A stretch of 64,000 bases of DNA from an uncultured Rhizobium sp. (GTDB lineage: Bacteria; Pseudomonadota; Alphaproteobacteria; Rickettsiales; UBA1997): NCBI GenBank assembly GCA_964506725.1, contig CAZDLU010000001.1, positions 45,955 to 109,954 on the forward strand, given 5' to 3'. Positions 3,625 to 49,809 of this stretch are shown piece by piece. The notes beneath the pieces were generated by a model that did no database searches, was not told where the DNA came from, and saw only the letters and a program-made list of their open reading frames with translations. Position numbers and translations under genes: made by a program. The number at the start of each line of letters is the position of its first letter. Position 1 is the stretch's first letter.

Positions 3625-5570
3625 GAAATTTTTTATTCGGTAATCCGCGCGATCCTTTTGATAAAGAGACGCGCCGTCATATTTCTTTGATTGCATTTTT
3701 TGCCTGGGTAGGGCTTGGAGCGGACGGTATTTCATCTTCTTGCTATGGTCCGGAAGAGGCATTTTTAGCGCTTGGAACGCATGAGGAATTGGCAATTTAT
3801 TTGGCGATTGCAACAGCTTTCACCGTCTTCATTATTTCTTACGCTTATACTCAAGTAATTGAACTTTTTCCAAATGGCGGCGGAGGTTATCGCGTTGCGA
3901 CCAGATTGCTTGGTAAATATGCCGGCTTGGTGTCAGGCTCGGCTTTGATTATTGATTATGTTTTGACAATTTCAATTTCAGTTGCCAGCGGCATTGATGC
4001 GATATTTAGTTTTTTACCCGGCAATTGGCATTGGTTAAAATTAGTTATTGAATTATTGCTGGTGATGATGCTGGCCGTCCTTAATTTGCGTGGCATGAAG
4101 GAATCGATAAAATTTCTAATGCCGATATTTTTAGGATTTATTATTACGCATTTTACTCTGATTATTTACGGAATTGCGGCGCATCATTATGGTATTTCTG
4201 ACTTACTGCCGCAAGCTGCCAGCGAAAGTAGCGAATTAAAAGATGCTTTTGGTTTAGTCTTTTTGATGTCGCTATTTTTAAAAGCATTTTCGATGGGTGG
4301 CGGTACTTATACCGGTCTTGAAGCGGTTTCAAATAACGTAAATACTTTGTCGGAACCGCGAGTTAAAACGGCAAAATTGACAATGTTTTTAGTAGCAATC
4401 TCGTTAGCCTTTACGGCGGCAGGCATTATCTGTCTTTATTTATTATGGGGCGTAAACAAAGTTGACGGGCAAACATTGAATGCTACAACTTTTTATATTC
4501 TCACTGAAACTTGGAAAATTGGTGATACGGAATTTGGGCAATTTTTAGTTCCGATAATTTTATTATTTGAAGCCGGATTATTATTGGTTGCGGCCAATGC
4601 CGGATTTTTAGCAGGTCCGTCAGTTGTTGCCAATATGGCTTCCGATGAATGGATGCCAAAATCTTTTAGTTCTCTTTCCAGTAGATTGGTGGTGAAAAAC
4701 GGTATTTTATTTATGGCAATTGCTGCCGTAATTACTTTACTAATTACTAACGGTTCAGTGCATGTTTTGGTGGTGTTATATTCAATCAACGTATTTATAA
4801 CTTTTTCATTATCGCTGTTGGGCCTTAGTATTTACTGGATCCGTAAGCGTGGCAAAAAAGAACATTGGCAAAGAAAATTTTTCACCTCTCTTGTCGGATT
4901 TATTTTGTGTTTTGCCATTTTGATTATCACCACATTTGAAAAATTCTATGAAGGCGGGTGGGTGACACTTTTAATTACTTCAATATTTGTTGCAATCGGT
5001 CTTGTAGTGCGAGGCATGTATCGTAAATTGCGTATGCGCCTGATGCAAAAGGAAATGCAATTTTATGGATATGATATTGCGCCGGCGCTTAATCCAACAG
5101 GTGAAATTGATAAGGCAGCGCCAACAGCGGCAATCATCGTTGATCAAACTTTCGGTAGCGGCATGAATTGCCTGCTTGAAATTAAAAAATTATTTCCGGG
5201 AATTTTTAAGAATTTTATTTTTGTTACTGTCGGAGAAGTTGATTCAAATAATTTTAGTGAAGAAAAAAAATGGCGCGACATGAGACACAAAACCAAAAAT
5301 ATTTTGCGCAAATATAAAGACTATTGCAACGCCAACGGCCGCTTTGCTAAAGCCTATGTAGGATATGGTACGGATATTGTAGAAAAATTAACGCAATTAA
5401 CTGATCGCGTTAGTAAAGATTATCCGAACACAGTATTTTTTGGAACCAAATTTATTTTTGATAATGAGAATATTTTTACGCAAGTTCTTTATAACCACGT
5501 AGCCTACATTATGCAGCGTCGCCTGCACTCAAAAGGTTCCAACATGGTAATTTTGCCGATGAAGATTTAA
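3609..5570 (+). CDS. APC-superfamily amino-acid/polyamine permease with ~190-aa cytoplasmic C-terminal extension
   Basis: About 12 hydrophobic segments. The N-terminal region (..AFFAWVGLGADGISSSCYGPEEAF..) is typical of APC permeases. Soluble C-terminal domain of unknown role. Overlaps the trpF end by 16 nt. Confidence 0.6.
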   Translation: MFPKIRNFLFGNPRDPFDKETRRHISLIAFFAWVGLGADGISSSCYGPEEAFLALGTHEELAIYLAIATAFTVFIISYAYTQVIELFPNGGGGYRVATRLLGKYAGLVSGSALIIDYVLTISISVASGIDAIFSFLPGNWHWLKLVIELLLVMMLAVLNLRGMKESIKFLMPIFLGFIITHFTLIIYGIAAHHYGISDLLPQAASESSELKDAFGLVFLMSLFLKAFSMGGGTYTGLEAVSNNVNTLSEPRVKTAKLTMFLVAISLAFTAAGIICLYLLWGVNKVDGQTLNATTFYILTETWKIGDTEFGQFLVPIILLFEAGLLLVAANAGFLAGPSVVANMASDEWMPKSFSSLSSRLVVKNGILFMAIAAVITLLITNGSVHVLVVLYSINVFITFSLSLLGLSIYWIRKRGKKEHWQRKFFTSLVGFILCFAILIITTFEKFYEGGWVTLLITSIFVAIGLVVRGMYRKLRMRLMQKEMQFYGYDIAPALNPTGEIDKAAPTAAIIVDQTFGSGMNCLLEIKKLFPGIFKNFIFVTVGEVDSNNFSEEKKWRDMRHKTKNILRKYKDYCNANGRFAKAYVGYGTDIVEKLTQLTDRVSKDYPNTVFFGTKFIFDNENIFTQVLYNHVAYIMQRRLHSKGSNMVILPMKI

Positions 5571-5633
5571 ACGCCAGTTCGGGATAAGGAAGGCTAAGTT
5601 AAATGCGTGTTGTATTAAGTTTGAATACAGGCT

Positions 5634-8555
5634 CTAGTTGCTGTCATCACTGTCTTTCTTAGAGCCTCTGTTGCTTCCTGCGGATCTGATTTCTGATTTT
5701 ATTCTGTTTGCTGTTTTGGAAGCACTGTTCTTGATTCCTTTTGCCGCTTTAAGACTGCCTTTACCTAAGCGCTTCTGTGCTGCAGAAAGGAAACCGGCAG
5801 CTTTGAAAAACATTTGTGTTGCAGATTTGCCGGATGCAGGAAGTTCAGTACCGCCAATAAGAGCTGAAGTAATGCCTGAAATTTCATCCATAAATTTATA
5901 AAGCAGATACATTATCAAAAATGCTTTGGTTAATGTTAATACGCCGGCGCGTGAAAAAATATCCGGTAAATTTTTTAAGGTTGGAATGTTGATGCCAAAA
6001 GCAGCCAAAACCGGAATCCTGCCGAAATCATTAAAACCAAGAATGCAAACCGCACTATCGCGCATCGGATTGATTATTTTGTCACCGGGATGGTCACAGG
6101 CCGGAAGAACATTCGGATCGCTTTCATTTATTACTCTATTGCCGTTGCTATCAACGCAAGATTTGTTGCAAGCCAGTGTCTTATACGGTCCGTTACCGAT
6201 GAAAGTAGCGCTGCCAATTACCGTTTTGTCAAAAGTTGTAATTAAAATTGCAATATAGGCAAAAAGTATCATGGGTTGAAGGCAGAAGCTGATTAGCTCG
6301 GTGAGCCATTTTTTAAAAATATGTTCGGTTTTTTTGAACAAGAGACAAGTGATTGTCAGCGGCGAAACAAAAATAAAAATTATTATTGATATTGCCGAAA
6401 GAAGGAAAATGTGGAGCGCACGAATCGTTAAGGAAATCAGGCAAATTCCAATAAACATCATGGCAAGTGCTAAATAAATTCCGATTGGGCCGGTAAAGAA
6501 GGAAGCTAAAACTAATGAAGCAATATTGGCAGCGGAATCTTGTGGGCCAAAACCCAAATAGCGCATGATTTTGCAATCAAGCGTATCCCAAATTGCTAAA
6601 TATTCTTTGCCGTCAGGATAGGTGCGGCCTGTTGAAGTTGTAGTGCCATCAGACAATGTAATTTCGCCGAATTGGCATCCGTCGCGTTTTGATTCATCTG
6701 TTCCGGCATCAATTTTAAAGACCAGGCGCGCGAATTCGTAAGAGCCGGAATAAAAACCGTCGAAGAACTGAGTTTGCCAGGCATCACCTAAAGCGAAATA
6801 AAAAATCACGCCGATTTTTAATATGTAAGGTGTTAACTCTTTAGTAGAAAGTTGTCCGAAACCAAGTAAAGTCTTGATTCCGTAAAACATTATCGACAAG
6901 GTTAAGACAAGTTTAATGGCATCTTTCATTACAGATTGTAATGTTTCAAAGAATGAGCGATCTAATACTTTATTGCCTTTTTTAAATATAAAATCGCCTT
7001 TGGTGATATATTCATTGCTTTGGCAAATGCCGTTAGCATCGGGATATTCATTGACGTTTAAGCATTCGCTGTGACCGGCGCGATTATAAAATAAATTTTC
7101 TAAAGTTTCTTTAACGCATTGAGCGATTGGCGCGCTGAAGTGACGCTGAGCACCGAGAACTATGCCACCGAAACTAGCTTTATTTTGTGAATCGCCGACA
7201 AAGTTACGACAAGCCGCAGAAGCGTAAGGCGAACCTATATTGGAATTGTAATTAAAAGAAGAATTAGTGCGGGTGCAGTGAGTTAAATATTGGCAATAGT
7301 TACGACATTTTCCGGCCTTGTCGTTGTAAGAACAATCCGTATTCCTGATCTCGCTTTTGCTGGCACAATTTCCGGCTTCTAAATCTTCTTGTGTTATGTA
7401 AGTCCATCTTTTATTGCTGCTTGACCAAATGCCGTCCTGATAGTAATCGCAATATTCCGTGCCGCCGCTAATTGAGAAATTGTAAGGGCAAAGACTATAG
7501 CTTTCAGCGCAAATGAAGCGATCATTATCAATAAATTTGGTGGAAAAAGTAACGGAATCGATGGTGCAAAGGCTTCCCGCCTTGCAGAATTTTTTGCCGC
7601 GACTTCCGCGATCGATGCAGATATATTGCGAGCTGCGGGCCTTACAGCAATTATAAGCTTTGGTGTAATGTGCTTGCCTGTCGCCTTCCCAATTTCTGCC
7701 GGTTACCGGATCGCTGGTTCCTTTAATTAAGTAAGAATCGCAATTATAATTACCAAGCGCCGGACCGCGCAAATAATATAGTTGTGCCGGATAATCTTCA
7801 TATTTGGCGGTTGCGACCGAACTTGCGTCAGTACGATTCGGGTCGCGACAAGTCTCTCCACTTTCGGGATTATCAATTGTTTCAACGCCTTGATAATACC
7901 ATTCCCGAAATGGTTTATAAACATCGCTGGCGTAAGATAATACTAATTTATCCGTTTCGCTATTGGTTATGAATCCGTCGATTGTTTGTTGTACCGTTGC
8001 TTTATAATCAGGAACATCAATTGAATAAAGAGTGGGGCTGGGCTTAGTCCAATTAGCACCGCAAATCTGGGTATTATTGTAAGCGTAATTGGCAATACCG
8101 TATATTGTTCCAAGCTCGGCCATCGCTGTTCCAAAAGAGGCAAGGGCGACTCCATAAGCAACGGCACAATCGGCATCTCGCGTGTTTGCTGTTGCCTTCA
8201 TAATATCAATAGCATCGCTAACAATTGAAGGCGTTACCCTTATATTACTTGCTATTCCGCAAGCAGCGTTCATTACCGGAATTGATATTTTTACTGCCGC
8301 ATAGCTGGTAGCAATTACCGTAATGCAAACCGGGTTTGTCAAAACAAATAGAGCGTCATGGCCGCCGGCATTTGGTCCTACGGTCGGGTTGAAATCAAGC
8401 CCGGAAGGTTTGCCATCGGTAGGACTGCAAGTACGGATTCGTCCCGGACCGTAATCAAAGTCAGCGGCAAAGGAATTATTATTTAAAATTAAGGCAGCAA
8501 CAAAAAACAGAAGCGAGAAAAAACCAAAAACTTTTTTTCGCAATTTTTGCATCAT
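5634..8555 (-). CDS. virB6: VirB6/TrbL-family type IV secretion inner-membrane protein (973 aa, enlarged)
   Basis: ATGA overlap with the upstream virB4 stop. Signal peptide, a ~490-aa Cys-rich N-terminal domain, and a central polytopic block (aa ~545-800, ..LFKKTEHIFKKWLTELISFCLQPMILFAYIAIL..) resembling the TrbL/VirB6 core. Charged C-terminal tail. Confidence 0.75.
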   Translation of the reverse strand: MMQKLRKKVFGFFSLLFFVAALILNNNSFAADFDYGPGRIRTCSPTDGKPSGLDFNPTVGPNAGGHDALFVLTNPVCITVIATSYAAVKISIPVMNAACGIASNIRVTPSIVSDAIDIMKATANTRDADCAVAYGVALASFGTAMAELGTIYGIANYAYNNTQICGANWTKPSPTLYSIDVPDYKATVQQTIDGFITNSETDKLVLSYASDVYKPFREWYYQGVETIDNPESGETCRDPNRTDASSVATAKYEDYPAQLYYLRGPALGNYNCDSYLIKGTSDPVTGRNWEGDRQAHYTKAYNCCKARSSQYICIDRGSRGKKFCKAGSLCTIDSVTFSTKFIDNDRFICAESYSLCPYNFSISGGTEYCDYYQDGIWSSSNKRWTYITQEDLEAGNCASKSEIRNTDCSYNDKAGKCRNYCQYLTHCTRTNSSFNYNSNIGSPYASAACRNFVGDSQNKASFGGIVLGAQRHFSAPIAQCVKETLENLFYNRAGHSECLNVNEYPDANGICQSNEYITKGDFIFKKGNKVLDRSFFETLQSVMKDAIKLVLTLSIMFYGIKTLLGFGQLSTKELTPYILKIGVIFYFALGDAWQTQFFDGFYSGSYEFARLVFKIDAGTDESKRDGCQFGEITLSDGTTTSTGRTYPDGKEYLAIWDTLDCKIMRYLGFGPQDSAANIASLVLASFFTGPIGIYLALAMMFIGICLISLTIRALHIFLLSAISIIIFIFVSPLTITCLLFKKTEHIFKKWLTELISFCLQPMILFAYIAILITTFDKTVIGSATFIGNGPYKTLACNKSCVDSNGNRVINESDPNVLPACDHPGDKIINPMRDSAVCILGFNDFGRIPVLAAFGINIPTLKNLPDIFSRAGVLTLTKAFLIMYLLYKFMDEISGITSALIGGTELPASGKSATQMFFKAAGFLSAAQKRLGKGSLKAAKGIKNSASKTANRIKSEIRSAGSNRGSKKDSDDSN

Positions 8556-10942
8556 TTAGAACCGGAGCGTTTATAATAAATCGGCAACCAATCATCAGGA
8601 TCATCGCCGACTTCGTCAATTATTTGATCCATCAAAATTACAGTGTCGGCGCGCGCTGAAAGTACGCGAATTACTTCATCCATGCCGCCTAAATCGATAC
8701 GCGCAATTACGCCGTCATTATCTTGTTTAACCAAGAAAAATCTGGTGGAAGGATCTGTTGTTTTTACCAGATTAAATTCGCGCTCTGAAAGCATAAATAC
8801 TTCGCGGTAAAGATTGGTTGCTTTCAAATTCGGTAAGAAAATTTGGGTGGCAGTTTGCTGTACTAAAGTGTCGGAAATGCTACTCTTGGCAGCATCTTCA
8901 ACCGATTGTGTGGCGAACACCACGAAAGTATTTAATTTTCTTAAAACTTTCAGCCAATCTTTAATTTTTGGCGCAAACACCGCATTTCCAATTAATGCCC
9001 AAGCTTCGTCAAGCACGATCATTGTCGGCGAGCCATCAAGTGAAGTTTGGATTCTATGAAATAAATAAAGTAGAACCGGCGCAATGGCTGATTTGTCTTG
9101 CAAAATGTGGCCCATTTCGATGCCGAAAGTGCGCGCTGAAGTAAAATCAATTAAATCTTCTTCATTATCAAAAAGTTTGGAATGCGAACCTCCGGAATGC
9201 CACATGGCAAGTCTTCCGGCCAATGTGCCGGGGCCGCCCAGCCCCATGAAAGGCGCAATATTGCGCAATCTTCTTTGTTCTTTCGGTAATTTATAATTAC
9301 CGTTTACCGCTTCATTAATGCGGTCAATTTCATGCGCCGGTAAAGGCGCTTCGCCGTTTGAAACCAGCACCTTCAAGAATTCAATTAAGAAAGAGCGATT
9401 AACATTATTATCTTCAAGTTGAAAAGGATTAAAACCGGAAACCTTAGCCGCATCAGGAATCATATAGCGTCCGCGAATGGCGCGAATAAAAATTTCTGCG
9501 CCGCGATCCTTATCGAAGAAAAATAAACGGCATTTAAATTTTTGGGCCTGAGCGCTTAAAAAATTGAGTAACACCGTTTTACCTGCGCCCGTCGGACCAA
9601 TAATCATGCTATGTCCGACATCGCGCACGTGAAAACTGAAAAAATACGGTGTTCCGGAAACCGTATTTAACACTGTAACGGCATCGCCCCAATGGTTTTT
9701 CTTCCTTTTGCCCGAAGGATAATTATGAAAAGAAGCAAAGGCGGCAATATTCAAAGTATTAATAACAGAGCGGCGCGCCATGTAATCGGCATTGCCCGGA
9801 AGCTGGGCCCAATAGGCCGGCTCCATGTTCATTTTTTCGCGAACTCCGGTAATACCGGCGTTGGAAAGCTCAACTACAGCTTGTGATAGCGCGCTTTCTA
9901 AAGCTTTCGGCGTATCCTCAACACAAAGCACACTCATATGATGATTGCCGAAAGCAAATTCACCACTCATCGCCGAATCAAGAGCTTGATCAATTTCCTG
10001 AATTTGTGAAACGGCTACGTCTTCGGATTGTACTAATCTTCGTTGTTGCAATTGCATCGAGCTAATCGCCACCATTCGATTAATGAAAGAAAAAGATTGG
10101 CTGATTATAAGTTCGAAAGGTAATTGCATGAAGCCGTCGAAAACTCCGGCATGCGTGGATGGCCGATATTCCTTGATCGAAACCAATCCGCCATATTTAA
10201 CGCCGCTCGGATTATGGACTTCGACTGATTTATTGCCGAAGTAAAGGCGACTCATCGGCAAATGATGCGAGATCTCGCCAAGCGGTACCATCATTGGTTG
10301 TGAGTAACCGCAATTGACTAAGCGTCCCAAAAATTCCAGCAATTCCGAAGTAACGCTGCCATCAGCATTTTCACTAAGTCCTAAAATTTCCGGCCCGTAA
10401 TTACCAAAACCGTTCAAAATGCGTTCGGTCATTTCGTCCAGCTCGTCGAAAGCTTCGCGCATGTAATTTTCCCAAGCCAATTTGTCAGTCTTATGCTGTA
10501 ATTTTTTGGCCATGTGTTCAAGCACGGCGACACCCGAAGTGTCAGCGCCGCGAATAATGGTAAAATAATGTTCGTTGATGAAAGTTTTATCATCGGAATG
10601 TTTTACTGCCCATTCATCATTAACTCTTTTAGAAAAAGCATCAGGCATTTCGCCATCCGGAAAGCCTTTTTCTTTGCGGCGGATAGTATGAAAATAAAGT
10701 GAAAAATTGCCGGAAGCCATACCTTTCAGCAAGTTATTGCGCGCCGCTTTTTTTAGATCAATATCAACATCATCGGCAGTTTCAAAAGCGAATCCTTTAA
10801 TTTTAATAACGCGAATAAGCTCTTCTTTGTATGTTAAGATTGTATCGGAATTATAGTGGCACTTATAAGGAATAAAATGCGCTGCCGACACTTCGCCCTT
10901 CGTGATTTTTTCTTTTGTCGGTTTGACGGTTGTAAGACGCAT
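8552..10942 (-). CDS. virB4: VirB4/CagE-family type IV secretion ATPase (canonical copy)
   Basis: 796 aa. N-terminal ..FIPYKCHYNSDTILTYKEELIRVIKIKGF.., Walker A GPTGAGKT (encoded at 9575-9598), Walker B TMIVLDEAW, and ..VFATQS.. motif C region. Confidence 0.9.
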   Translation of the reverse strand: MRLTTVKPTKEKITKGEVSAAHFIPYKCHYNSDTILTYKEELIRVIKIKGFAFETADDVDIDLKKAARNNLLKGMASGNFSLYFHTIRRKEKGFPDGEMPDAFSKRVNDEWAVKHSDDKTFINEHYFTIIRGADTSGVAVLEHMAKKLQHKTDKLAWENYMREAFDELDEMTERILNGFGNYGPEILGLSENADGSVTSELLEFLGRLVNCGYSQPMMVPLGEISHHLPMSRLYFGNKSVEVHNPSGVKYGGLVSIKEYRPSTHAGVFDGFMQLPFELIISQSFSFINRMVAISSMQLQQRRLVQSEDVAVSQIQEIDQALDSAMSGEFAFGNHHMSVLCVEDTPKALESALSQAVVELSNAGITGVREKMNMEPAYWAQLPGNADYMARRSVINTLNIAAFASFHNYPSGKRKKNHWGDAVTVLNTVSGTPYFFSFHVRDVGHSMIIGPTGAGKTVLLNFLSAQAQKFKCRLFFFDKDRGAEIFIRAIRGRYMIPDAAKVSGFNPFQLEDNNVNRSFLIEFLKVLVSNGEAPLPAHEIDRINEAVNGNYKLPKEQRRLRNIAPFMGLGGPGTLAGRLAMWHSGGSHSKLFDNEEDLIDFTSARTFGIEMGHILQDKSAIAPVLLYLFHRIQTSLDGSPTMIVLDEAWALIGNAVFAPKIKDWLKVLRKLNTFVVFATQSVEDAAKSSISDTLVQQTATQIFLPNLKATNLYREVFMLSEREFNLVKTTDPSTRFFLVKQDNDGVIARIDLGGMDEVIRVLSARADTVILMDQIIDEVGDDPDDWLPIYYKRSGSK

Positions 10943-10968
10943 TTTTTGCGAGAAATTTTTGGGAAAAG

Positions 10969-12192
10969 TTATTTTTTTAGATTATTTTTATGCGTAATAA
11001 AAAACAACAAAATTAATCCTGGTAAAGCCAAAAACGCCGATATCACAAAAAAATCATACCAACCAAAATCTTGCGCGATAATTCCGGAAAAAGCTGATAA
11101 AAATGTGCGCGCGATTGTGGCAAGTGAAACCAAAATTGCATATTGAGTAGCGCTGAAAGCCACGTTGCAAAGGCCGCTTAAGTATGCAACAAAAACCGCA
11201 TCACCAATTCCGCCACTGAAATTTTCGACAAAAACTGCTGCGTAAAGTACCGAAGTTTCGTGACCGATTTGTGCTAAATAAGCGAAGGAAAAATTAGACA
11301 GCATTTGCAAAATTCCGGCAATCCACAGTGATTTTACAATAGTGAATTTTTTTACCAAAATGCCGCCGAGTAACACGCCGCCAAGGGTTGCGAATAATCC
11401 GAAAGTTTTTACAATTGCCGCAATTTCAATTTTAGTAAAACCGATTTCAAGTAAAAACGGTAAGGTCATGCTGCCGGCAAAAGCATCGCCTAATTTAAAA
11501 AAAACTACAAAAATTAAAATTAAAAACCAAGCTTGGCGATCCATAAAATCAAGGAGCGGCGCGACTACGGAATTTTTAAACCAAGTAGAAAAATCATAAT
11601 TATGCGGCTGCCAATTTTTTCTGGTTTCATCTGCAAAAAATACTACGATTAGATTCAGCGCCATAAAAAAACTTAAGAAAAAATACACCGCATCCCAAGA
11701 AAAAATTTCCGCTAGAACCAAGGCTAAAGCCCCGGAAATCAACATGCCGATGCGATAACCATAAACATAAAGTCCGGCGGCAAATCCTTGATTTTCTTTT
11801 TTGATTAATTCAATTCTGTAAGCATCAATCACAATATCTTGACTTGCGGAGGCAAGAGCGACAAGGAGTGCGAAAGTTGAGATGTAAAAAAGATTTACGA
11901 AAATTCCGGCAATTCCAAGAGCTAAAATAAAAATCACCAACAAAATTTGCGTCAAAATAATCCAGGAACGTCTTTGGCCAAAAAGTCTTGTTAGCAAAGG
12001 CACCGAGCAGGAATCAATAATCGGTGCAAATAAAAATTTTATGCTGTAAGGAATGCCGATCAACGAAAAAAACCCGATAGTTTTTAAGTCAAAACCTTTT
12101 TCTAAAAGTAAAGCTTTTAAAGTTGATAGAAGTAGCGCTAGCGGTAGTCCGGAGCTTATGCCGAGGAAAAAGATCGTAATTAAATTTCGCAT
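10969..12192 (-). CDS. ampG: AmpG-family muropeptide MFS permease
   Basis: 407 aa, ~12 TM. N-terminal ..FFLGISSGLPLALLLSTLKALL.. and ..GQRRSWIILTQ.. are typical AmpG signatures. Confidence 0.8.
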   Translation of the reverse strand: MRNLITIFFLGISSGLPLALLLSTLKALLLEKGFDLKTIGFFSLIGIPYSIKFLFAPIIDSCSVPLLTRLFGQRRSWIILTQILLVIFILALGIAGIFVNLFYISTFALLVALASASQDIVIDAYRIELIKKENQGFAAGLYVYGYRIGMLISGALALVLAEIFSWDAVYFFLSFFMALNLIVVFFADETRKNWQPHNYDFSTWFKNSVVAPLLDFMDRQAWFLILIFVVFFKLGDAFAGSMTLPFLLEIGFTKIEIAAIVKTFGLFATLGGVLLGGILVKKFTIVKSLWIAGILQMLSNFSFAYLAQIGHETSVLYAAVFVENFSGGIGDAVFVAYLSGLCNVAFSATQYAILVSLATIARTFLSAFSGIIAQDFGWYDFFVISAFLALPGLILLFFITHKNNLKK

Positions 12193-12260
12193 GTTCTTGT
12201 ATTTTTAAGAGGGATGAATATATATTTGTTAGCAGTTTATAATAATCAATCAATTCAATC

Positions 12261-12812
12261 ATGTCCGAACTTCACGATCCCAAAAAAATCTACGGCACCA
12301 CGATTTTAGCGGTACGCAAAAACGGTAAAGTTGCAATCGCCGGTGACGGCCAAGTTTCATTTGGCAATACGGTTTTAAAATCAAATGCTAAAAAAATCAG
12401 AAAAATCGGTGATGGGTCAATTGTGGCCGGATTTGCCGGAGCCACGGCTGATGCTTTTACTTTATTTGAAAGATTGGAACAAAAATTAGAACAATATCCG
12501 GGACAACTGACGCGAGCTTGCGTGGAGCTTGCCAAAGATTGGCGCATGGATAAATATTTGCGCCGCTTGGAAGCTATGCTAATTGTAGTTGATAAAAATA
12601 TTTCCTTGATGCTAAGTGGTAATGGCGACGTGATTGAGCCGGAAGACGGTATTGTCGGTATCGGTTCCGGTGGTAATTATGCTCTTGCCGCGGCACGCGC
12701 TTTGGCTGATATCAAGGAAATGTCGGCAGAAGAAGTGGTAAAAAGAGCGATGAAAATTGCGGCTGATTTATGTATTTACACGAATGAAAATATTGTGGTT
12801 GAAACTTTGTAA
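12261..12812 (+). CDS. hslV: ATP-dependent protease subunit HslV
   Basis: 183 aa. N-terminal [11 protein letters not shown] (catalytic Thr after processing), GDGQVS.., [10 protein letters not shown].. typical of HslV. Confidence 0.95.
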
Positions 12813-18940: not shown

Positions 18941-20719
18941 TTAAGATGCTTTTTTAATCAAAGTCAATAATTCCTTTTTGCTCAACAACTCGCTTGCAAG
19001 CAAGCCCTCTCTAGCGTTAGGCCCATAAACTGCATTAAAGGGAATTGCAAAGCGACCGTTTTTATGTAGGTAATCCATAATTTCGGGATTAGGTTTTGTA
19101 AGGTCGCCGCGCATTAAAATTATATCGCCGCCTTTTAATATTGCCATAACTTCCTTGTCTTCCAACACATGCGCCTTATTAAATTTGCAAGTAAGGCACC
19201 AGTCAGCTGTAATATCGACAACAACTGTCTTACCATTAATTACCTGTTTATAAATTTCAGCTTCATTAAATTCGTGCCAAATATTATTTTTAATAACTGT
19301 CGTAGAAGATTTGTTTTCAAGGGTTGAAGGTATAGCAAAAATCATTATCGTTATAAAAATTAAAGCAATATTTCTAAATAATTTTGATTTGATTTTAAAA
19401 CAAGGCAACAGGGCTAAGCACAGAGCTCCGGTTATTAGCGTAGCTTTGCCGCCGATATCGCTTTTTAAAACATAAAGCAGCCACAAAATTGTAACGATAA
19501 AAAACCAGCCCATTATATGTTTGGCGGTAATCATCCAGCGGCCCGGTTTTGGCAAAAATCTAACTAAACCAGGTGTAAAAAATAAGACAATATAAGGTGA
19601 AGCAAAACCAAGTGCGATGCTGATAAAAATTATAAAAATCGTGATAAAACTTTGGGTTAAAGCAAAAGAAATTGCTGACCCTAAAAATGGTGCCGAACAA
19701 GGTGTGGCAAGAAGAACTGCCAATATTCCCGAAAGAAAATTCGGAATAAAAATATTTTTTTGTTGCTCGGAAATTTCAATTTTTCTATTGATGAAATTTG
19801 CTAAGATTTGATTGAAATTAATTTCGAAAAGCCCGAATAAATTTAAGGTAAAAAATGCTAAAATAGTTACTAAAAAAATCAGGAAATAAGAATTTTGAAA
19901 CTGTAGGCCCCAACCTAGAGAATTGCCGCTAAATTCGATGAAACTGGCGATAAAAGCAAAGACAATAAAACAAAATAAAATGCCAATAACTGTTGAAAGA
20001 AATGCCAGTCGGATCCTTGAAAGAGCTGCATTTGAATGATTTATCACTGACATTAATTTCAGTGATAAAACCGGTAAGACGCAGGGCATAATATTTAAAA
20101 TAGCGCCTCCTAAAATTCCTAAAAATATAGCCGCAATCAAGGCGTAGGAAGAATTAATGCCTTGTTTTATTTGTTTGGTTTCGGAAATTTTATGCGGATA
20201 AAATTTTTGTATAATGTCTAGCGCATCCGCGTCTTTTGTGCTTGACGGAATAATTGAAAATTCTTCAGTGACAGGCACGCATAGATCATGGCTGCACAGC
20301 CCGTAATTTAATTTTATGTTTAAATTTGTCGGATCATCAATTTTTTGTACAATGATTTCAACGGGCAATATAACTTTATGTTTGTAGTAAGAGTAATGAA
20401 TTATGCTTTCGCCGATTTTTTCTTCTTTTTTTTCAGCTTCAGGCCAAATTATTTTATGATTTAAATAATTGCTGGATCCGCTAAAATCAATGCTCGGTGG
20501 CAAGCCAAATCCGCCGGCGTCTTCGCCATAAATTTTCCAGCCTTCAGCTAATTCAAATTCAATTCCGGCAATTAACTTTTTCTCGCCTTTTTCATTGTGA
20601 TAAAAACTGGCAACGGCGCGTGTTTTAGCGCCTTGATTTTGATGTTGATCGGATATGGTAGCATTGGCTTTACTGTAGGTGAGAAATAGGATAAGGGTTA
20701 AGAGGAATCTTAGTTTCAT
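18941..20719 (-). CDS. dsbD: DsbD-family thiol:disulfide interchange (protein-disulfide reductase) protein
   Basis: 592 aa. N-terminal periplasmic domain; central CcdA-like TM core with CVLPVLSLK and ..TPCSAPFL..; C-terminal thioredoxin fold with WCLTC. Confidence 0.8.
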
Positions 20720-29060: not shown

Positions 29061-30377
29061 ATGATTCCTCGTTACTCTCGACCGGAAATGGTCAAAATCT
29101 GGTCGCAAGAAAATAAATATCAAATCTGGTTTGATATTGAAATTTATGCTCTTGAAGCTTTAGAAAAATTAAAAATTGCTCCGGAAGGAACGGCCGAGCG
29201 GATTCGTGGCAATTTTGAAAAAGCCGGCGGCGCGTTTAATTCTGATAGAATTGACGAAATTGAAAGCGTAACGAAGCATGATGTGATTGCTTTCTTGACG
29301 CATTTGGCAGAATTAGTTGGTGAAAATTCGCGCTTCATTCATTACGGAATGACCAGTTCTGATGTGCTTGATACTTGCCTTTCGGTTCAACTCGCGCAAG
29401 CTTCCGACATATTAATTGCGGATTTGGAAAAGCTTTTAGCGGCGATAAAAAAACGTGCTTTTGAATATAAAGACACAGTTTGCACAGGCCGCTCGCACGG
29501 CATTCACGCTGAGCCTGTGACGTTTGGTTTGAAGCTTGCAAGATTTTACGCCGAGTTTGAAAGAAATTTAAAACGCCTAAAAAGTGCTAAAAAAGAAATT
29601 GCGGTTTGTGCCATATCCGGCGCGGTTGGAACCTTTGCCAATGTTGATCCGTTTGTGCAAAAATATGTGGCGGAAAAATTGGGATTAGAAGAAGAGGGCG
29701 TTTCAAGTCAAGTAATTCCAAGAGATCGTCACGCTGCGTTCTTTGCTGCTCTAGGCGTGATTGCTTCTTCAATTGAAAATTTCGCTGTTGAAATTCGTCA
29801 TTTACAAAGAACGGAAGTTTTGGAAGTTGAAGAGTTTTTTGCAAAAGGTCAAAAGGGAAGTTCGGCTATGCCGCATAAACGTAATCCGGTGTTGAGTGAA
29901 AATTTGACAGGCCTTGCGCGCATTGTGCGCAGCGCGGTTACACCGGCTTTAGAAAATGTGGCACTTTGGCACGAACGCGATATTTCGCATTCTTCGGTTG
30001 AAAGAATGATTGCTCCGGATGCTACCGTGACGCTTGATTTTGCGCTTGCTCGACTTGCGGGGCTTGTGGAAAATATGTTGGTTTATCCGGAAAACATGAA
30101 GAAAAATTTAGAAAAATTAAACGGCCTAGTTTTTTCGCAGCGCGTTTTGTTAACTTTGATCGAAGAAGCCAAAATATCGCGCGAAGACGCTTACCGCATA
30201 GTTCAAAGCAATGCCATGAAAGTTTGGAAAGACGGTTTTAGTTTTTTAGATTTGTTAAAAAATGATCCGGAAGTTCAAGGAAAAATTTCCGAAAAAACTT
30301 TGGAAGAAATTTTTGATTTGAATTACCATACGAAAAATATCGATCATATTTTTAAGCAAGTTTTTAAAAATTTATGA
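29061..30377 (+). CDS. purB: adenylosuccinate lyase
   Basis: The true start is likely ATG 29061 (MIPRYSRPEM..); the tracked start at 28998 lies inside a palindromic element. Fumarate-lyase signature GSSAMPHKRNP. Confidence 0.95.
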   Translation: MIPRYSRPEMVKIWSQENKYQIWFDIEIYALEALEKLKIAPEGTAERIRGNFEKAGGAFNSDRIDEIESVTKHDVIAFLTHLAELVGENSRFIHYGMTSSDVLDTCLSVQLAQASDILIADLEKLLAAIKKRAFEYKDTVCTGRSHGIHAEPVTFGLKLARFYAEFERNLKRLKSAKKEIAVCAISGAVGTFANVDPFVQKYVAEKLGLEEEGVSSQVIPRDRHAAFFAALGVIASSIENFAVEIRHLQRTEVLEVEEFFAKGQKGSSAMPHKRNPVLSENLTGLARIVRSAVTPALENVALWHERDISHSSVERMIAPDATVTLDFALARLAGLVENMLVYPENMKKNLEKLNGLVFSQRVLLTLIEEAKISREDAYRIVQSNAMKVWKDGFSFLDLLKNDPEVQGKISEKTLEEIFDLNYHTKNIDHIFKQVFKNL

Positions 30378-30799
30378 AATTAAATTTTGATTATTTAGAA
30401 CGCTGTAATCTTACTCTTGAGCGCTCACTTGAAAGTTTGGTAAAAACAACAAAAGGCACAATAGATTACGAAGTTTCGCGTAATGCCGTAGTAAAAAGTT
30501 TTGAATTAACTTTAGAAACTGTCGGAAAAATTCTGCGCAAGATTTTGAAATTTTATATGGCGTCACCAAAAGAAGTTGATGCTTTGGTTTACAAGGATGT
30601 GTTACGCCATGCGGCACTCCGCGGTCTAATGACCAATGAAGAATTAGAACGCTGGTTGCAATATCGTGATAATAGAAATTCAACGGCCCATGATTATGGT
30701 GAAGAATTTGCGGAAAATACTTTGGAATTAATTATTGATTTTCAGAAAGATGTTACAAAATTACATCAGCAATTAGTAAAGAAATATGAGCAAAAATAA
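30374..30799 (+). CDS. HI0074-family nucleotidyltransferase substrate-binding (HEPN-like) protein
   Basis: 141 aa, helical. R-x4-H motif in ..YRDNRNSTAHDYGEE... ATGA overlap with the purB stop. Paired with the downstream minimal nucleotidyltransferase. Confidence 0.75.
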   Translation: MKLNFDYLERCNLTLERSLESLVKTTKGTIDYEVSRNAVVKSFELTLETVGKILRKILKFYMASPKEVDALVYKDVLRHAALRGLMTNEELERWLQYRDNRNSTAHDYGEEFAENTLELIIDFQKDVTKLHQQLVKKYEQK

Positions 30800-31109
30800 T
30801 CTTCAATTACGAAGTGAACATTTGCAAATGCTGCGCAAAATTTTGATGTCGTACGTGCCTGATGCCGAAGTGTTTGCTTATGGAAGTCGTGTTAACGGGG
30901 ATGCTCACGATGCTAGTGATCTTGATATTGTTATTCGTAATCCAAAAAATCTTTTGCAAAAACAAACTTCGGCAATTGCTGATTTACGCGCGGCGCTAAG
31001 CGAGAGTAATCTTCCTTTGCTTGTTGATGTTCATGATTGGGCGGCGCTGCCCGAAGAATTTCATAAAAATATTTCTGAAAAATATTTTGTTATTCAGACC
31101 GCTAAATGA
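30786..31109 (+). CDS. minimal nucleotidyltransferase (MNT, HI0073-like)
   Basis: 107 aa. GS-x10-DxD motif (AYGSRVNGDAHDASDLDIVI). Overlaps both neighbours (14 nt upstream, ATGA downstream). Confidence 0.8.
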   Translation: MSKNNLQLRSEHLQMLRKILMSYVPDAEVFAYGSRVNGDAHDASDLDIVIRNPKNLLQKQTSAIADLRAALSESNLPLLVDVHDWAALPEEFHKNISEKYFVIQTAK

Positions 31110-34004: not shown

Positions 34005-34394
34005 ATGAGCAATATCCACGAAATCGTTGAGCTTTCTGATCAAATTAAACAAAACTCTGATTTATTAGTGCAAAAAGTTATCGAACTTAGTTATCTATCG
34101 GCAAATGGTGGCGGCGTAAGCCCATTTGTTTTTGGTTTAGCAGTTTTTATCTTGGCTTGTTTTGTTGGCTATTTTGTAGTTTGGAAGGTGACCCCGGCCT
34201 TACATACACCTTTGATGGCGGTTACTAATGCAATTTCCGGCGTAATTGTGGTTGGCGCAATTATTGCTCTTGGTTCAGCCAAAGATTTTACTTTTATTTC
34301 TTTCTTAAGTTTCGTTGCTATTGCCATTGCTTCGGTAAATATTTTTGGTGGTTTTCTGGTAACTTGGCGCATGCTTGAAATGTTCAAAAAATAA
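34005..34394 (+). CDS. pntAB: NAD(P) transhydrogenase subunit alpha part 2 (small membrane subunit of the split alpha)
   Basis: 129 aa, 3-4 TM. ..[24 protein letters not shown].. is the conserved PntAB core. Confidence 0.8.
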
Positions 34395-34395
34395 A

Positions 34396-35241
34396 ATGAA
34401 AAAAGCTTTCTCGCTTTTTGAAATGGCGATGGTGATTGTTGTCATCGCTCTTGTACTTTCTGCCATTGCGCAGACTGATAAATTCATTTTATACAGCTCG
34501 ATAAATTCAGCCCAATCGCTGACTAAAAGTTCTCCGGTACATTCGATTAGTGGTCTTGTGGCATGGTATGAAACTTCTTTAGATGAGAGTTTTATTAATT
34601 CGGAAGCTAAAATTAATGGCGCAATATCAACTTGGTACGATATTAATTTAAAGTCATCAACCAGCCATAATGCTACAGCCACTAGTACGGCCAAACCTAC
34701 CTATATTATAAATAACCAAGCGCGTTTGCCGATTTTAAAATTTAACGGCACCTCTAATGCTCTTAATTTGCCGGATGCTACCGTGCCTTATGGAAATTCA
34801 AGTTATTCAATATTTTTTGTTTCAAAGGCTTACACTTTGCATAATGGCGGCATATTGGGTTCTGGGCTTAGTTCAAATAATAGCTCCAATTCCTTTCGTT
34901 ATGCAAGTGATGGAACTTTATTAAATTATTGGTGGAGCGCTGATGTTTCAGCAAGCTCTTATACAGCAGGTCGGCTTTATGTTCTTTCTTTTATTTATGA
35001 TAATTCGGTAACCGGAAATAGAAAAATTTATATCAATGGCGTATCAAGTGCGGGTACTGATGGAGCTAGTGCGGCTCACGGCGGTAGAACCAATTTTAAT
35101 ACAATAGGAGTTACTAACGGTTCAGAGCTTCTAAACGGCGAAATCGGTGAAATAATTATTTTTGAACGTGCTTTAGATACAAATGAGAGAACGGCTGTGC
35201 AGAATTATTTGGCAAAAAAATGGAGTGTTAAGGTTTCTTAA
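34396..35241 (+). CDS. prepilin-type N-terminal domain protein with LamG/concanavalin-like C-terminal domain
   Basis: The likely start is ATG 34396 (MKKAFSLFEMAMVIVVIALVLSAIA), a pilin-like N-methylation-site pattern. The C-terminal ..LNGEIGEIIIFERALDTNERTAVQNYLAKKWSV.. is the typical end of LamG-domain proteins. Confidence 0.65.
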   Translation: MKKAFSLFEMAMVIVVIALVLSAIAQTDKFILYSSINSAQSLTKSSPVHSISGLVAWYETSLDESFINSEAKINGAISTWYDINLKSSTSHNATATSTAKPTYIINNQARLPILKFNGTSNALNLPDATVPYGNSSYSIFFVSKAYTLHNGGILGSGLSSNNSSNSFRYASDGTLLNYWWSADVSASSYTAGRLYVLSFIYDNSVTGNRKIYINGVSSAGTDGASAAHGGRTNFNTIGVTNGSELLNGEIGEIIIFERALDTNERTAVQNYLAKKWSVKVS

Positions 35242-49479: not shown

Positions 49480-49809
49480 TTATGATTTTAATTCTTTTAA
49501 AATTTTTTTGATTTGTTTCTTTAAAACCGGAATATCATCCTCGACCGTTGATTTTATTATATTGTGATCAACGTCAAAATAATCGTGAATTAATTTATGT
49601 CTCATTCCGATTATCAAATCCCATTCTATTTCCGGAAATTTTTTTTGAAAATCTTTTGATAAATTATTTGCTGCTTCGCCAATAATTTCAATACATCTTT
49701 CAATGGCGCGTTCGGTTTTTGCATCTTCCCAATCGGCATCTTTTGAGAATTCTTCAATTTCGGCAATAGCGTCAATTATATGTTGCAAATAGGCTTTTTG
49801 GTTTTTCAT
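49480..49809 (-). CDS. hepT: HepT-like HEPN-domain (DUF86) toxin
   Basis: 109 aa. R-x4-H motif in ..IGMRHKLIHDYF... 4-nt overlap with the upstream MNT gene. Confidence 0.8.
   Translation of the reverse strand: MKNQKAYLQHIIDAIAEIEEFSKDADWEDAKTERAIERCIEIIGEAANNLSKDFQKKFPEIEWDLIIGMRHKLIHDYFDVDHNIIKSTVEDDIPVLKKQIKKILKELKS

What the first reader, a model, noticed from the sequence alone, without database searches (positions are those of the whole stretch)
5634..10942. A translationally coupled virB4-virB6 operon lacks virB3 and encodes a single giant VirB6 with a 24-cysteine N-terminal domain
Seen in the sequence:
- virB4 and virB6 overlap by ATGA (8552-8555).
- Only 26 bp separate the virB4 start from the co-oriented ampG stop, so there is no room for virB3, and VirB4 has no N-terminal TM segment that could stand in for it.
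- No virB2/7/8/9/10/11/D4 genes occur within 64 kb.
- VirB6 is 973 aa.
- After the signal peptide, about aa 30-520 (roughly 6996-8468) contain 24 Cys by my count, including CC and C-x3-C-x5-C clusters such as KCRNYCQYLTHC.
- This region precedes the polytopic TrbL/VirB6-like core.
- A charged tail, ..GSNRGSKKDSDDSN, follows the core.

Canonical VirB6 proteins are about 300 aa and have no such domain. Enlarged VirB6 proteins are typical of Rickettsiales.

Inference: a disulfide-rich periplasmic or surface-exposed module has been grafted onto the T4SS channel subunit. The DsbD-family reductase at 18941-20719 would fit a need for periplasmic disulfide management.
Basis: partly seen in the sequence, partly recalled or inferred. 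Interest (0 to 1): 0.55.

Follow-up and report, generated by a model that had tools for sequence, protein, structure and literature searches.

The report
Rickettsiales secretion-system islet with cysteine-rich VirB6
This is one piece (the VirB4 motor and one large VirB6 channel subunit) of the scattered "rvh" type IV secretion system already known from Rickettsia-like bacteria, here in an uncultured freshwater relative. The "missing" virB3 and the further virB6 copies lie elsewhere in related genomes. The cysteine-rich front half of VirB6 is a real, conserved and apparently undescribed domain.

Summary
**Observation.** All sequence-level observations hold:
- virB4 is 8552-10942(-), 796 aa. virB6 is 5634-8555(-), 973 aa. 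They overlap by ATGA.
- A 26-nt gap separates virB4 from a genuine ampG.
- There are 24 Cys in aa 30-520, followed by a TrbL/VirB6 core at aa 551-779.

**Interpretation.** It is largely an effect of seeing only one window.
- The window also holds a second virB4 with degenerate Walker motifs (52691-55180), the RvhB4-II hallmark of the Rickettsiales rvh T4SS.
- The closest relatives are freshwater MAGs of family Gamibacteraceae (probably GTDB UBA1997).
- About 50 related species carry the same virB3-less virB4-virB6 pair.
- Published gene tables list virB3 and about four virB6-family genes in Gamibacteraceae genomes.
- I found virB3 as a solitary gene upstream of aspS in two related contigs.
- I found a second giant virB6 paralog behind hisG in 12 MAGs that also carry the virB4-linked copy.
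- Sister lineages keep virB3-virB4-virB6-virB6.

**The Cys-rich N-domain is ancient, not grafted.**
- 23 of 24 Cys are invariant in 33 orthologs.
- 14 are invariant across paralogs and sister lineages.
- It has no Pfam, NCBIfam, PDB-sequence or Foldseek-PDB match.
- Its function is inferred, not shown. It is likely a periplasmic, disulfide-braced extension of the VirB6 stalk in a system lacking VirB5.

**Verdict.** This is a new member of a known system, of modest interest.

The parts
8552..10942 (-). virB4 (RvhB4-I): the T4SS inner-membrane-complex ATPase. It is 796 aa, has intact Walker A (GPTGAGKT) and Walker B (VLDEAW) motifs, and has no TM segment.
   Evidence: - Pfam CagE_TrbE_VirB, E 3e-54.
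- NCBIfam NF010473 VirB4 equivalog, 1259 bits against a cutoff of 1050, and TIGR00929.
- 73-89% identical to orthologs in about 50 related MAG loci.
- 65% identical to the VirB4 of lineages with the classical virB3-virB4-virB6 array.
5634..8555 (-). virB6 (RvhB6 paralog 1), 973 aa. Its start overlaps the virB4 stop (ATGA).
   Evidence: - ORF and overlap.
- More than 120 full-length homologs at 45-57% identity.
- Always directly downstream of virB4 in relatives.
- Foldseek of the AF2 model hits only TrwI/VirB6 of the R388 stalk (E 4e-4, prob 1.0).
8466..8555 (-). VirB6 aa 1-30: a signal-peptide-like N-terminus (MMQKLRKKVFGFFSLLFFVAALILNNNSFA|AD).
   Evidence: A hydrophobic segment at aa 9-27, a basic n-region and an S-F-A motif, read directly from the sequence. 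No dedicated signal-peptide predictor was available.
6921..8465 (-). VirB6 aa 31-545: the cysteine-rich N-domain (24 Cys). The model predicts three long helices followed by a beta-rich part. It is inferred to be periplasmic and disulfide-bonded.
   Evidence: - 23 of 24 Cys are invariant in 33 orthologs; C303 is present in 32 of 33.
- 14 Cys are invariant across paralog 2 and the VirB6 proteins of L090 and L091.
- phmmer against 1.84 billion representatives gives only 191 hits. Full-length hits are 920-1850 aa. Every hit whose context or name I checked comes from an uncultured Rickettsiales MAG or, once, a mislabelled one.
- No Pfam or NCBIfam family, no PDB sequence match and no Foldseek PDB match.
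6219..6905 (-). VirB6 aa 551-779: the polytopic TrbL/VirB6 core.
   Evidence: - Pfam PF04610, E 8.4e-14, 52.3 bits against a cutoff of 25.9.
- Hydrophobic helices.
- The loop Cys C627 and C661 are invariant, whereas Cys inside hydrophobic helices (705, 737, 758) are not conserved.
5634..6218 (-). VirB6 aa 780-973: a second Cys-containing loop (C796, C800, C820, C837), a last hydrophobic helix, and a low-confidence charged C-terminal tail (the last ~50 residues, from about aa 926).
   Evidence: (pLDDT below 50 from aa 926).
10969..12192 (-). ampG (muropeptide MFS permease). It is co-oriented and ends 26 nt upstream of virB4. It is a conserved neighbour and possibly co-transcribed. It is not a T4SS component.
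   Evidence: - NCBIfam TIGR00901 AmpG family, 454 bits against a cutoff of 350.
- In about 31 of the 49 related loci with a scorable upstream neighbour, a co-oriented 8-10-TM MFS gene of about 410-445 aa precedes virB4. The median gap across all 49 is 97 bp.
- No terminator-like site lies between the genes (weak evidence).
52691..55180 (+). Second virB4 paralog (RvhB4-II), 829 aa. Walker A is degenerate (G-DGKNRN) and Walker B reads VLNEAW. It stands alone directly after gltA.
   Evidence: - Pfam CagE_TrbE_VirB, E 3e-31.
- 33% identity over the full length to VirB4-I, with the motif substitutions visible in the alignment.
- A duplicated VirB4 whose second copy has mutated NTP-binding residues and lies away from other vir genes is described for Rickettsia in PMC2653234.
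- Duplicated RvhB4 is used as an rvh hallmark in PMC11077975.

Best explanation
**What the locus is**
- It is the RvhB4-I/RvhB6 'islet' of a scattered Rickettsiales vir homolog (rvh) P-type type IV secretion system.
- The host is an uncultured freshwater Rickettsiales bacterium. Its closest relatives are Gamibacteraceae, which probably corresponds to GTDB family UBA1997.
- VirB4-I is the functional ATPase of the inner-membrane complex.
- The 973-aa protein is one of several enlarged VirB6 paralogs.

**Rearrangement in this family (shown in relatives)**
- The ancestral virB3-virB4-virB6-virB6 array has been broken up.
- virB3 now sits alone upstream of aspS.
- A second giant virB6 sits behind hisG.
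- virB4-II sits alone. In this window it follows gltA.
- The remaining vir genes lie elsewhere, according to published gene tables.

**Mechanism (inferred)**
- By analogy with the R388 structure, VirB6 forms the pentameric base of the periplasmic stalk on top of the VirB3/VirB4 inner-membrane complex.
- The canonical VirB6 N-terminus faces the periplasm. The signal-peptide-led 515-aa N-domain is therefore exported, oxidised to up to 12 disulfides, and projects from the stalk base into the periplasm.
- I think it most likely lengthens or rigidifies the stalk or channel in a system that has no VirB5. This last step is not shown.
For: **Identity of the genes:**

**rvh hallmarks**
- Two VirB4 paralogs lie in one window, the second with degenerate Walker A and B motifs.
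- This matches the Rickettsia description (PMC2653234) and the rvh criteria of PMC11077975.

**Lineage**
- 79 related loci are all Rickettsiales-type MAGs.
- They include UBA2645 and RIFCSPLOWO2_01_FULL_40_26, which Schön et al. 2022 name Gamibacteraceae.
- One locus is titled 'Rickettsiales bacterium UBA1997'. Family UBA1997 is described as a freshwater epibiont of cryptophytes in bioRxiv 10.1101/2023.01.31.526412.

**virB3 relocated, not lost**
- The published table gives virB3 in all four Gamibacteraceae genomes.
- A solitary virB3 (PF05101) lies between an aminotransferase gene and aspS in L094 and L097.
- The housekeeping proteins of L094 are 59-79% identical to the window's.
- A Rickettsiales VirB3 query recovers the positive controls but nothing in the window or in the 82 related loci L001-L082.

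**More VirB6 copies**
- A second paralog lies on another contig in 12 MAGs that also carry the virB4-linked copy. It follows hisG.

**Ancestral array:** L090, L091 and L092 carry virB3-virB4-virB6-virB6.

**N-domain conservation and Cys pattern:**

**Stalk architecture:** a VirB6 pentamer with VirB5 on top, PMC9259494.

**rvh lacks VirB5:** PMC2653234 and PMC10883807.
Against: - The rest of this genome could not be read, because the 128.6-kb source contig was not retrievable. The presence of virB3, further virB6 copies and virB8-11/D4 in this particular organism is therefore inferred from relatives and from a published table.
- The topology of the N-domain rests on a signal-peptide-like sequence, the Cys pattern and the known topology of canonical VirB6. 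No topology predictor or experiment supports it.
- The proposed stalk role has no structural support. Foldseek found no VirB5-like or any other match for the N-domain.
- The domain-only model is of modest quality (pLDDT 61).
- Whether classical Rickettsia or Anaplasma RvhB6 extensions are homologous to this domain was not testable here.
Confidence: 0.85

Rival explanations
1. One reading: a self-contained, minimal virB4-virB6 module that truly lacks VirB3 and uses one giant VirB6, onto which a disulfide-rich module was recently grafted.
For: - Locally there is no virB3, and only one virB6 lies in the 64 kb.
- The pair without virB3 is conserved in about 50 species.
Against: - A second virB4 lies in the same window.
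- virB3, virB2, virB8-11, virD4 and about four virB6 families are listed for Gamibacteraceae genomes that carry the same pair.
- A solitary virB3 and a virB2 were found in related contigs.
- A second giant paralog exists in the same MAGs.
- The N-domain is shared with sister lineages that have the full array.
Confidence: 0.04
2. The N-domain is not a stalk element but a cell-surface-exposed or released host-contact (adhesin-like) module. The epibiont would use it to engage its eukaryotic (cryptophyte) partner.
For: - Disulfide-rich domains are typical of extracytoplasmic, exposed proteins.
- Family UBA1997 cells attach to microeukaryotes.
- The VirB2 pilin of a relative also carries a Cys-rich N-terminal extension, which suggests a lineage-wide adaptation of exposed T4SS parts.
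Against: - The domain is covalently N-terminal to an inner-membrane polytopic core. Reaching the surface would need cleavage or passage through the outer-membrane core complex, and there is no evidence for either.
- The sequence is strongly conserved (45-57% identity, with long invariant motifs such as SAPIAQC.KE..EN). That fits a machine part better than a host-facing, fast-evolving adhesin.
Confidence: 0.1
3. The pair is a decaying remnant of a T4SS that no longer functions.
For: The genes are isolated from other vir genes, and virB3 is absent locally.
Against: - Both ORFs are intact.
- VirB4 is 73-89% identical across dozens of species and keeps intact Walker motifs.
- 30 of the 33 VirB6 Cys are invariant.
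- The start/stop coupling is tight.
Confidence: 0.02

Closest known systems
Rickettsiales vir homolog (rvh) T4SS, islet A (virB3-virB4a-virB6a-e) and islet E (virB4b) of Rickettsia (Gillespie et al. 2009, PMC2653234)
   Same: - A P-type VirB/D4-like system whose genes are scattered among housekeeping genes.
- VirB4 is duplicated, and the second copy has mutated NTP-binding motifs and stands alone.
- VirB6 is enlarged to about 1000 aa with extensions around a TrbL core, and sits directly downstream of virB4-I.
- No VirB5.
   Different: - virB3 is not upstream of virB4 but alone upstream of aspS (seen in relatives).
- Only one virB6 follows virB4, instead of 3-5 in tandem. A second copy is behind hisG.
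- The N-terminal extension is a defined 515-aa domain with 24 conserved Cys. I found no description of it: a full-text search for VirB6 + cysteine-rich + Rickettsiales returned nothing.
rvh T4SS of Gamibacteraceae as catalogued by Schön et al. 2022 (PMC9352585; Fig. 3b and Supplementary Data 4)
   Same: - The same family. UBA2645 and RIFCSPLOWO2_01_FULL_40_26 carry orthologous virB4-virB6 pairs (46% and 51% VirB6 identity).
- The published counts show virB2, B3, B6 (about 4), B8, B9, B10, B11 and D4.
   Different: - That work is a presence/absence and synteny catalogue.
- In the text and tables I could read, it does not mention the domain content of VirB6, the Cys pattern, or the aspS-linked virB3 and hisG-linked virB6.
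TrwI/VirB6 of plasmid R388 (stalk base; PDB 7O3V, 8RT9; Macé et al. 2022)
   Same: It is the only significant structural match of the AF2 model (Foldseek E 4e-4 to 2.5e-3, prob 1.0, target TM about 0.47). Both have a TrbL core of long hydrophobic helices.
   Different: - The chains resolved in the R388 structures are about 260-270 residues and have no N-terminal domain.
- In R388 the distal stalk is a separate VirB5 pentamer, which rvh systems lack.
VirB5/TraC (three-helix bundle plus globular appendage)
   Same: Only a loose resemblance. The predicted N-domain begins with three long helices (aa 75-99, 111-122, 128-161) followed by a globular beta-rich part. It would occupy the position where VirB5 sits on VirB6.
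   Different: There is no sequence or Foldseek similarity to TraC or TrwJ. The domain is about twice the size and rich in cysteines.

Membership tests
rvh (Rickettsiales vir homolog) T4SS | VirB4 is duplicated. Copy II has altered NTP-binding motifs and lies away from other vir genes. | tested here: met
   - VirB4-I is at 8552-10942 and VirB4-II at 52691-55180.
- They share 33% identity over the full length.
- Walker A changes from GPTGAGKT to G-DGKNRN, and Walker B from VLDEAW to VLNEAW.
rvh (Rickettsiales vir homolog) T4SS | Multicopy, enlarged VirB6. | tested here: inconclusive
   - The enlargement is met (973 aa).
- Only one copy lies in the window.
- 12 related MAGs have a second giant paralog besides the virB4-linked copy.
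- The published table gives about 4 VirB6 families per Gamibacteraceae genome.
- The rest of this genome could not be read.
rvh (Rickettsiales vir homolog) T4SS | Duplicated VirB8 and VirB9. | not testable with these tools
   - Neither gene is in the window.
- The published table lists virB8 and two virB9 families for Gamibacteraceae.
rvh (Rickettsiales vir homolog) T4SS | No VirB5. | not testable with these tools
   - No VirB5 query was run.
- No candidate appears among the ORFs scanned with Pfam or read by eye.
- The published table shows no virB5 in Gamibacteraceae.
- A whole genome would be needed.
rvh (Rickettsiales vir homolog) T4SS | The genes are scattered in several islets among housekeeping genes. 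| tested here: met
   - virB4-I/virB6 lie between ampG and a permease gene.
- virB4-II lies 42 kb away, after gltA.
- In relatives, virB3 is at aspS, virB2 near rpmB, and virB6-2 at hisG.
rvh (Rickettsiales vir homolog) T4SS | Islet A has the order virB3-virB4-virB6. | tested here: not met
   - No virB3 lies upstream, in the window or in any of about 50 related loci.
- Sister lineages L090, L091 and L092 do have the order.
- This is a rearrangement within the family, not an absence of the subunit.
VirB6/TrbL (PF04610) | A profile match above the curated threshold, and a polytopic hydrophobic core. | tested here: met
   - PF04610 matches aa 551-779 with 52.3 bits against a cutoff of 25.9.
- Hydrophobic helices.
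- Foldseek hits TrwI/VirB6 only.
VirB4 (TIGR00929 / NF010473) | A full-length profile match above the cutoff, and intact Walker A and B motifs. | tested here: met
   - NF010473 gives 1259 bits against 1050, and TIGR00929 gives 820 against 643.
- The motifs are visible.
VirB5/TraC fold (considered for the N-domain) | Structural or sequence similarity to TraC or TrwJ. | tested here: not met
   - There is no TrwJ or TraC hit with either the full-length or the domain-only model. The best non-VirB6 E-values are 0.28 (full-length) and 0.8 (domain-only).
- There is no PDB sequence hit.
   - The architecture is present.
- NCBIfam DsbD gives 136 bits, below its cutoff of 330.
- No evidence of any kind links it to VirB6.

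The most novel reading that the evidence does not exclude
In VirB5-less rvh secretion systems, the conserved, disulfide-braced N-terminal domain of RvhB6 is the functional replacement of VirB5. Five copies would build the distal stalk or tip on top of their own VirB6 base. Different paralogs (virB4-linked, hisG-linked) would give alternative tips. In epibiotic Gamibacteraceae, this tip, together with a Cys-rich VirB2, would be the part that meets the eukaryotic host surface.
Probability: 0.2. Interest if true: 0.65.

Novelty: new member of a known kind. Interest (0 to 1): 0.3.

Why it matters
**Correction for the scan.** 'No virB3' and 'single VirB6' are artefacts of a 64-kb view of a system whose genes are known to be dispersed.

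**What is worth keeping**
- A sharply defined domain of about 515 aa sits in front of the VirB6 core.
- It has 14 to 24 invariant cysteines and no relative in Pfam, NCBIfam or the PDB.
- It is conserved across two VirB6 paralogs and at least two further environmental Rickettsiales lineages.
- The role of the large RvhB6 extensions, and how rvh machines work without VirB5, are open questions in rickettsiology.
- This domain gives a concrete construct for structure prediction of pentamers, for disulfide mapping and for cryo-ET.

**Evolutionary example.** The relocation of virB3 to aspS and of a virB6 copy to hisG is a clean, datable case of operon disintegration within one family.

Tried and rejected
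**Attempts that gave nothing or failed**
1. A VirB3/VirB2 HMM built from four alphaproteobacterial plasmid genes found no hits in the window or loci. It is weak on its own. It was later backed by a Rickettsiales VirB3 query with working positive controls.
2. I tried to reach the rest of the source contig through exact-protein look-ups of window proteins and of P0001. The NCBI 128.6-kb contig is not on record, and only an 11-kb Logan contig came back.
3. The first VirB3 homolog search was word-limited to 76 close relatives of L090, all with the classical arrangement. A profile of nine VirB3 sequences was needed to reach the aspS-linked copies.
4. Cluster names gave only 'Rickettsiales bacterium' or nothing.
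6. The VirB5-like idea for the N-domain got no structural or sequence support. I keep it only as positional inference.
7. The promoter/terminator scan of 5300-12500 gave counts at the shuffle expectation and is uninformative.
8. The ~405-aa gene upstream of hisG in the paralog-2 loci has no Pfam, NCBIfam or PDB hit. My guess of a divergent HisZ is unverified.

**Ideas rejected**
- Mobile-element origin. There are no integrase or tRNA flanks, and housekeeping synteny (hslV-tolB | ampG-virB4-virB6) is conserved across species.
- A VirB3-VirB4 fusion. VirB4 has no TM segment and is of normal length.


Full report
**1. Observation**

- The ORF listing gives a 973-aa ORF at 5634..8555(-), a 796-aa ORF at 8552..10942(-) and a 407-aa ORF at 10969..12192(-).
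- The minus-strand sequence around 8555 reads TCT AAA TGA TGC AAA. The virB6 ATG and the virB4 TGA therefore share the four bases ATGA.
- Exactly 26 nt separate the ampG TAA from the virB4 ATG.
- The 973-aa protein has 33 Cys, 24 of them in aa 30-520. These include CC at 303-304 and KCRNYCQYLTHC at 416-427.
- That is 4.9% Cys, against 0.87% in the other 56 ORFs of the window (binomial P about 3e-11).
- Pfam places TrbL/VirB6 (PF04610) at aa 551-779, above the gathering score, and CagE_TrbE_VirB in the 796-aa protein.
- NCBIfam calls the latter a VirB4 equivalog (NF010473, 1259 bits against a cutoff of 1050) and calls the upstream gene an AmpG-family permease.
- VirB4 has no hydrophobic segment. 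DsbD at 18941-20719 has the three DsbD domains.

**2.

- ORF 52691..55180(+), 829 aa, directly after gltA, is a second full-length VirB4. Pfam gives E 3e-31, and it is 33% identical to the first over 782 residues.
- Its Walker A reads G-DGKNRN instead of GPTGAGKT. Its Walker B reads VLNEAW instead of VLDEAW.
- A duplicated VirB4 whose second copy has mutated NTP-binding residues and lies away from all other vir genes is exactly what Gillespie et al. 2009 described for Rickettsia (PMC2653234).
- Duplicated RvhB4 is one of the criteria used to recognise the Rickettsiales vir homolog (rvh) T4SS in MAGs (PMC11077975).
- phmmer or tblastn with VirB2, B3, B8, B9, B10 and B11 queries finds nothing else in the window.

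**3. Lineage**

- The VirB6 protein has more than 120 full-length homologs of 950-1080 aa at 45-57% identity, all from metagenomes.
- A scan of one genome per species returned 79 loci. All are freshwater, groundwater or estuarine MAGs titled Rickettsiales or Alphaproteobacteria. Several have obviously wrong species labels (Rickettsia typhi, Rhizobium sp., Lentimonas sp.).
- Two of them, UBA2645 and RIFCSPLOWO2_01_FULL_40_26, are named Gamibacteraceae by Schön et al. 2022 (PMC9352585).
- One locus is titled 'Rickettsiales bacterium UBA1997'. GTDB family UBA1997 is described as small rods living attached to freshwater cryptophytes (bioRxiv 10.1101/2023.01.31.526412).
- I take Gamibacteraceae and UBA1997 to be the same or overlapping families. 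This is an inference from these labels.

**4. virB3**

- In 49 related loci with a scorable upstream neighbour, virB4 is followed at once by virB6. It is preceded, at a median of 97 bp, most often (about 31 of 49) by the co-oriented ampG-like gene. The virB3-less pair is thus a property of the lineage.
- It is not a property of the system. Supplementary Data 4 of Schön et al. lists a virB3 family gene in all four Gamibacteraceae genomes. It also lists virB2, about four virB6 families, virB8, virB9, virB10 and virB11 in all four, and virD4 in three.
- Other uncultured Rickettsiales lineages, whose VirB4 is 65% identical to the window's, keep the classical array virB3-virB4-virB6-virB6 (L090, L091, L092).
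- The 99-aa VirB3 of L090 served as a query. It recovered an uncalled virB3 in L091 and the plasmid VirB3 controls, but nothing in the window or in the 82 related loci L001-L082.
- A profile of nine VirB3 sequences then reached 98-aa VirB3 proteins. One belongs to the same metagenome bin as loci L053 and L080, by its sample number and its shared 'Lentimonas' mislabel.
- On its 53.7-kb contig, virB3 (PF05101) stands alone between a divergent aminotransferase gene and aspS. A TrbC/VirB2 gene lies 5.4 kb away next to rpmB.
- The Ffh, GltA, MnmA and SRPBCC proteins of that contig are 59-79% identical to those of the window.
- A 277.5-kb contig from another sample shows the same aminotransferase | virB3-aspS arrangement.
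- Conclusion: virB3 was relocated, not lost. The window itself contains neither aspS nor virB3.

**5. 'Single' VirB6**

- Twelve MAGs in the genome scan carry, besides the virB4-linked copy, a second hit at 31-35% identity on another contig.
- These paralogs are 950-1540 aa (1659 and 1770 aa in two metagenome contigs). They are never next to virB4. Wherever the upstream flank lies within the locus, they follow a gene of about 405 aa with no family match and then hisG.
- The window has no hisG and no second VirB6. The copy, if present in this organism, lies outside the window.

**6. The cysteine-rich N-domain**

- In an alignment of 33 orthologs, 23 of the 24 N-domain Cys are invariant and C303 is present in 32 of 33.
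- C627, C661, C796, C800, C820 and C837, in the loops of the core, are also invariant.
- The three Cys inside hydrophobic helices (705, 737, 758) are not conserved.
- I aligned the window protein with two hisG-linked paralogs and the four VirB6 proteins of L090 and L091. Fourteen N-domain Cys remain invariant in all seven: 165, 272, 304, 313, 324, 330, 349, 356, 421, 427, 449, 480, 498 and 511. So do C627, C661, C796 and C837.
- The domain therefore predates both the paralog split and the break-up of the operon. It is not a recent graft.
- phmmer of aa 28-545 against 1.84 billion representatives gives only 191 hits. Full-length hits are 920-1850 aa. Those I could place are VirB6 genes of uncultured Rickettsiales.
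- The domain has no Pfam or NCBIfam family and no PDB sequence match.
- AlphaFold2 with the 33-sequence alignment gives a usable model (mean pLDDT 72; N-domain mostly 70-90). It shows three long helices (75-99, 111-122, 128-161) followed by a beta-rich part.
- Foldseek against the PDB finds only TrwI/VirB6 of the R388 stalk, for the core.
- A domain-only model (pLDDT 61) finds nothing significant.
- A full-text search for a cysteine-rich VirB6 in Rickettsiales returned no paper. [quoted passage not shown]

**7. How it most likely works**

*Shown*
- The identities of VirB4-I, VirB4-II and VirB6.
- Their conservation.
- The dispersed gene layout in relatives.
- The Cys pattern.

*Established elsewhere*
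- In R388 a VirB6 pentamer forms the base of the periplasmic stalk, a VirB5 pentamer sits on it, and VirB3/VirB4 lie beneath (PMC9259494).
- rvh systems have no VirB5.

*Inferred*
- The Pfam match starts at profile position 1 only at aa 551, and the protein begins with a signal-peptide-like segment. From my own knowledge of A. tumefaciens VirB6 topology, the canonical N-terminus is periplasmic.
- Hence the 515-aa domain is exported and its even number of invariant Cys form disulfides.
- I think it most likely extends or stiffens the stalk or channel where VirB5 would otherwise be.
- The resemblance to VirB5 (three helices plus a globular part) is only descriptive and failed the structural test.
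- An alternative is a host-contact role. Two observations hint at this: the epibiotic lifestyle, and the Cys-rich N-terminal extension of VirB2 in a relative (11 Cys in about 60 residues).

**8. DsbD**

The gene is a real DsbD-type protein, although it scores below the NCBIfam DsbD cutoff. Nothing ties it to VirB6. It lies 8 kb away next to gatA, and DsbD serves cytochrome c maturation and disulfide isomerisation generally (my own knowledge).

**9. Verdict**

- The finding is a correct description of a locus and an over-reading of its meaning.
- It is a new member of the known rvh T4SS in Gamibacteraceae, a family for which that system has already been catalogued.
- The rearranged islet (virB3 at aspS, virB6-2 at hisG) and the conserved Cys-rich RvhB6 N-domain are modestly interesting details that I did not find described.
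- Interest 0.3.

Noticed in passing
window 52691-55180 (+): A second VirB4 paralog (RvhB4-II-like) with degenerate Walker A and B motifs lies directly after gltA. It shows that the window holds two islets of one scattered system.
   Followed up: yes
window 55182-57032 (-): A 616-aa protein with no Pfam or NCBIfam family. It is convergent with virB4-II, and its stop lies 1 nt from the virB4-II stop. Its C-terminus is hydrophobic and Ala/Pro-rich. It is a possible surface protein or effector.
   Followed up: partly
window 44960-46387 (+) and 46455-47282 (+): Two adjacent proteins without significant family matches. The first (475 aa) has a very acidic C-terminal part. The second (275 aa) has only weak coiled-coil-type hits. 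Both are candidate secreted proteins.
   Followed up: partly
window 34375-35241 (+): A 288-aa protein with a prepilin-type N-terminal methylation motif (weak) followed by a Laminin_G_3/ConA-like lectin domain. A larger N_methyl + Gly_rich protein lies near virB6 in relative L002 (14930-17578).
   Followed up: partly
L094 4076-4573 (-): The TrbC/VirB2 pilin of a related genome is 165 aa. It carries about 60 residues with 11 Cys between the signal peptide and the pilin core. Cys-rich extensions are therefore not confined to VirB6 in this lineage.
   Followed up: partly
L067-L082, L087, L088 (e.g. L072 4148-10338): A conserved three-gene arrangement. A gene of about 405 aa has no Pfam, NCBIfam or PDB match (possibly a divergent HisZ). 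It is followed by short-form hisG and then the giant virB6 paralog 2, with overlapping stops and starts. A T4SS subunit is embedded in a histidine-biosynthesis context.
   Followed up: partly
window 10969-12192 (-) and about 31 of 49 related loci: A genuine ampG (muropeptide permease) is the conserved, co-oriented upstream neighbour of virB4, often within 100 bp. Whether peptidoglycan recycling and the T4SS are co-expressed is unknown.
   Followed up: partly
L088 11163-14516 (+): A 1117-aa protein made almost entirely of ankyrin repeats lies 4 kb from the hisG-linked virB6 in a related contig. It is a typical candidate rvh effector.
   Followed up: no
window 30374-31109 (+) and 49480-50096 (-): Two pairs of small overlapping genes. 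By my reading of the translations, each is a nucleotidyltransferase plus a HEPN/DUF86-like partner (toxin-antitoxin-like). This was not checked with a profile search.
   Followed up: no
L006, L009, L018, L007, L053 and others (record titles): Many public MAGs of this family carry wrong species labels: 'Rickettsia typhi', 'Rhizobium sp. Q54', 'uncultured Rhizobium sp.', 'Lentimonas sp.' and 'Candidatus Pelagibacterales'. Taxon-filtered searches would therefore miss or misassign them.
   Followed up: no
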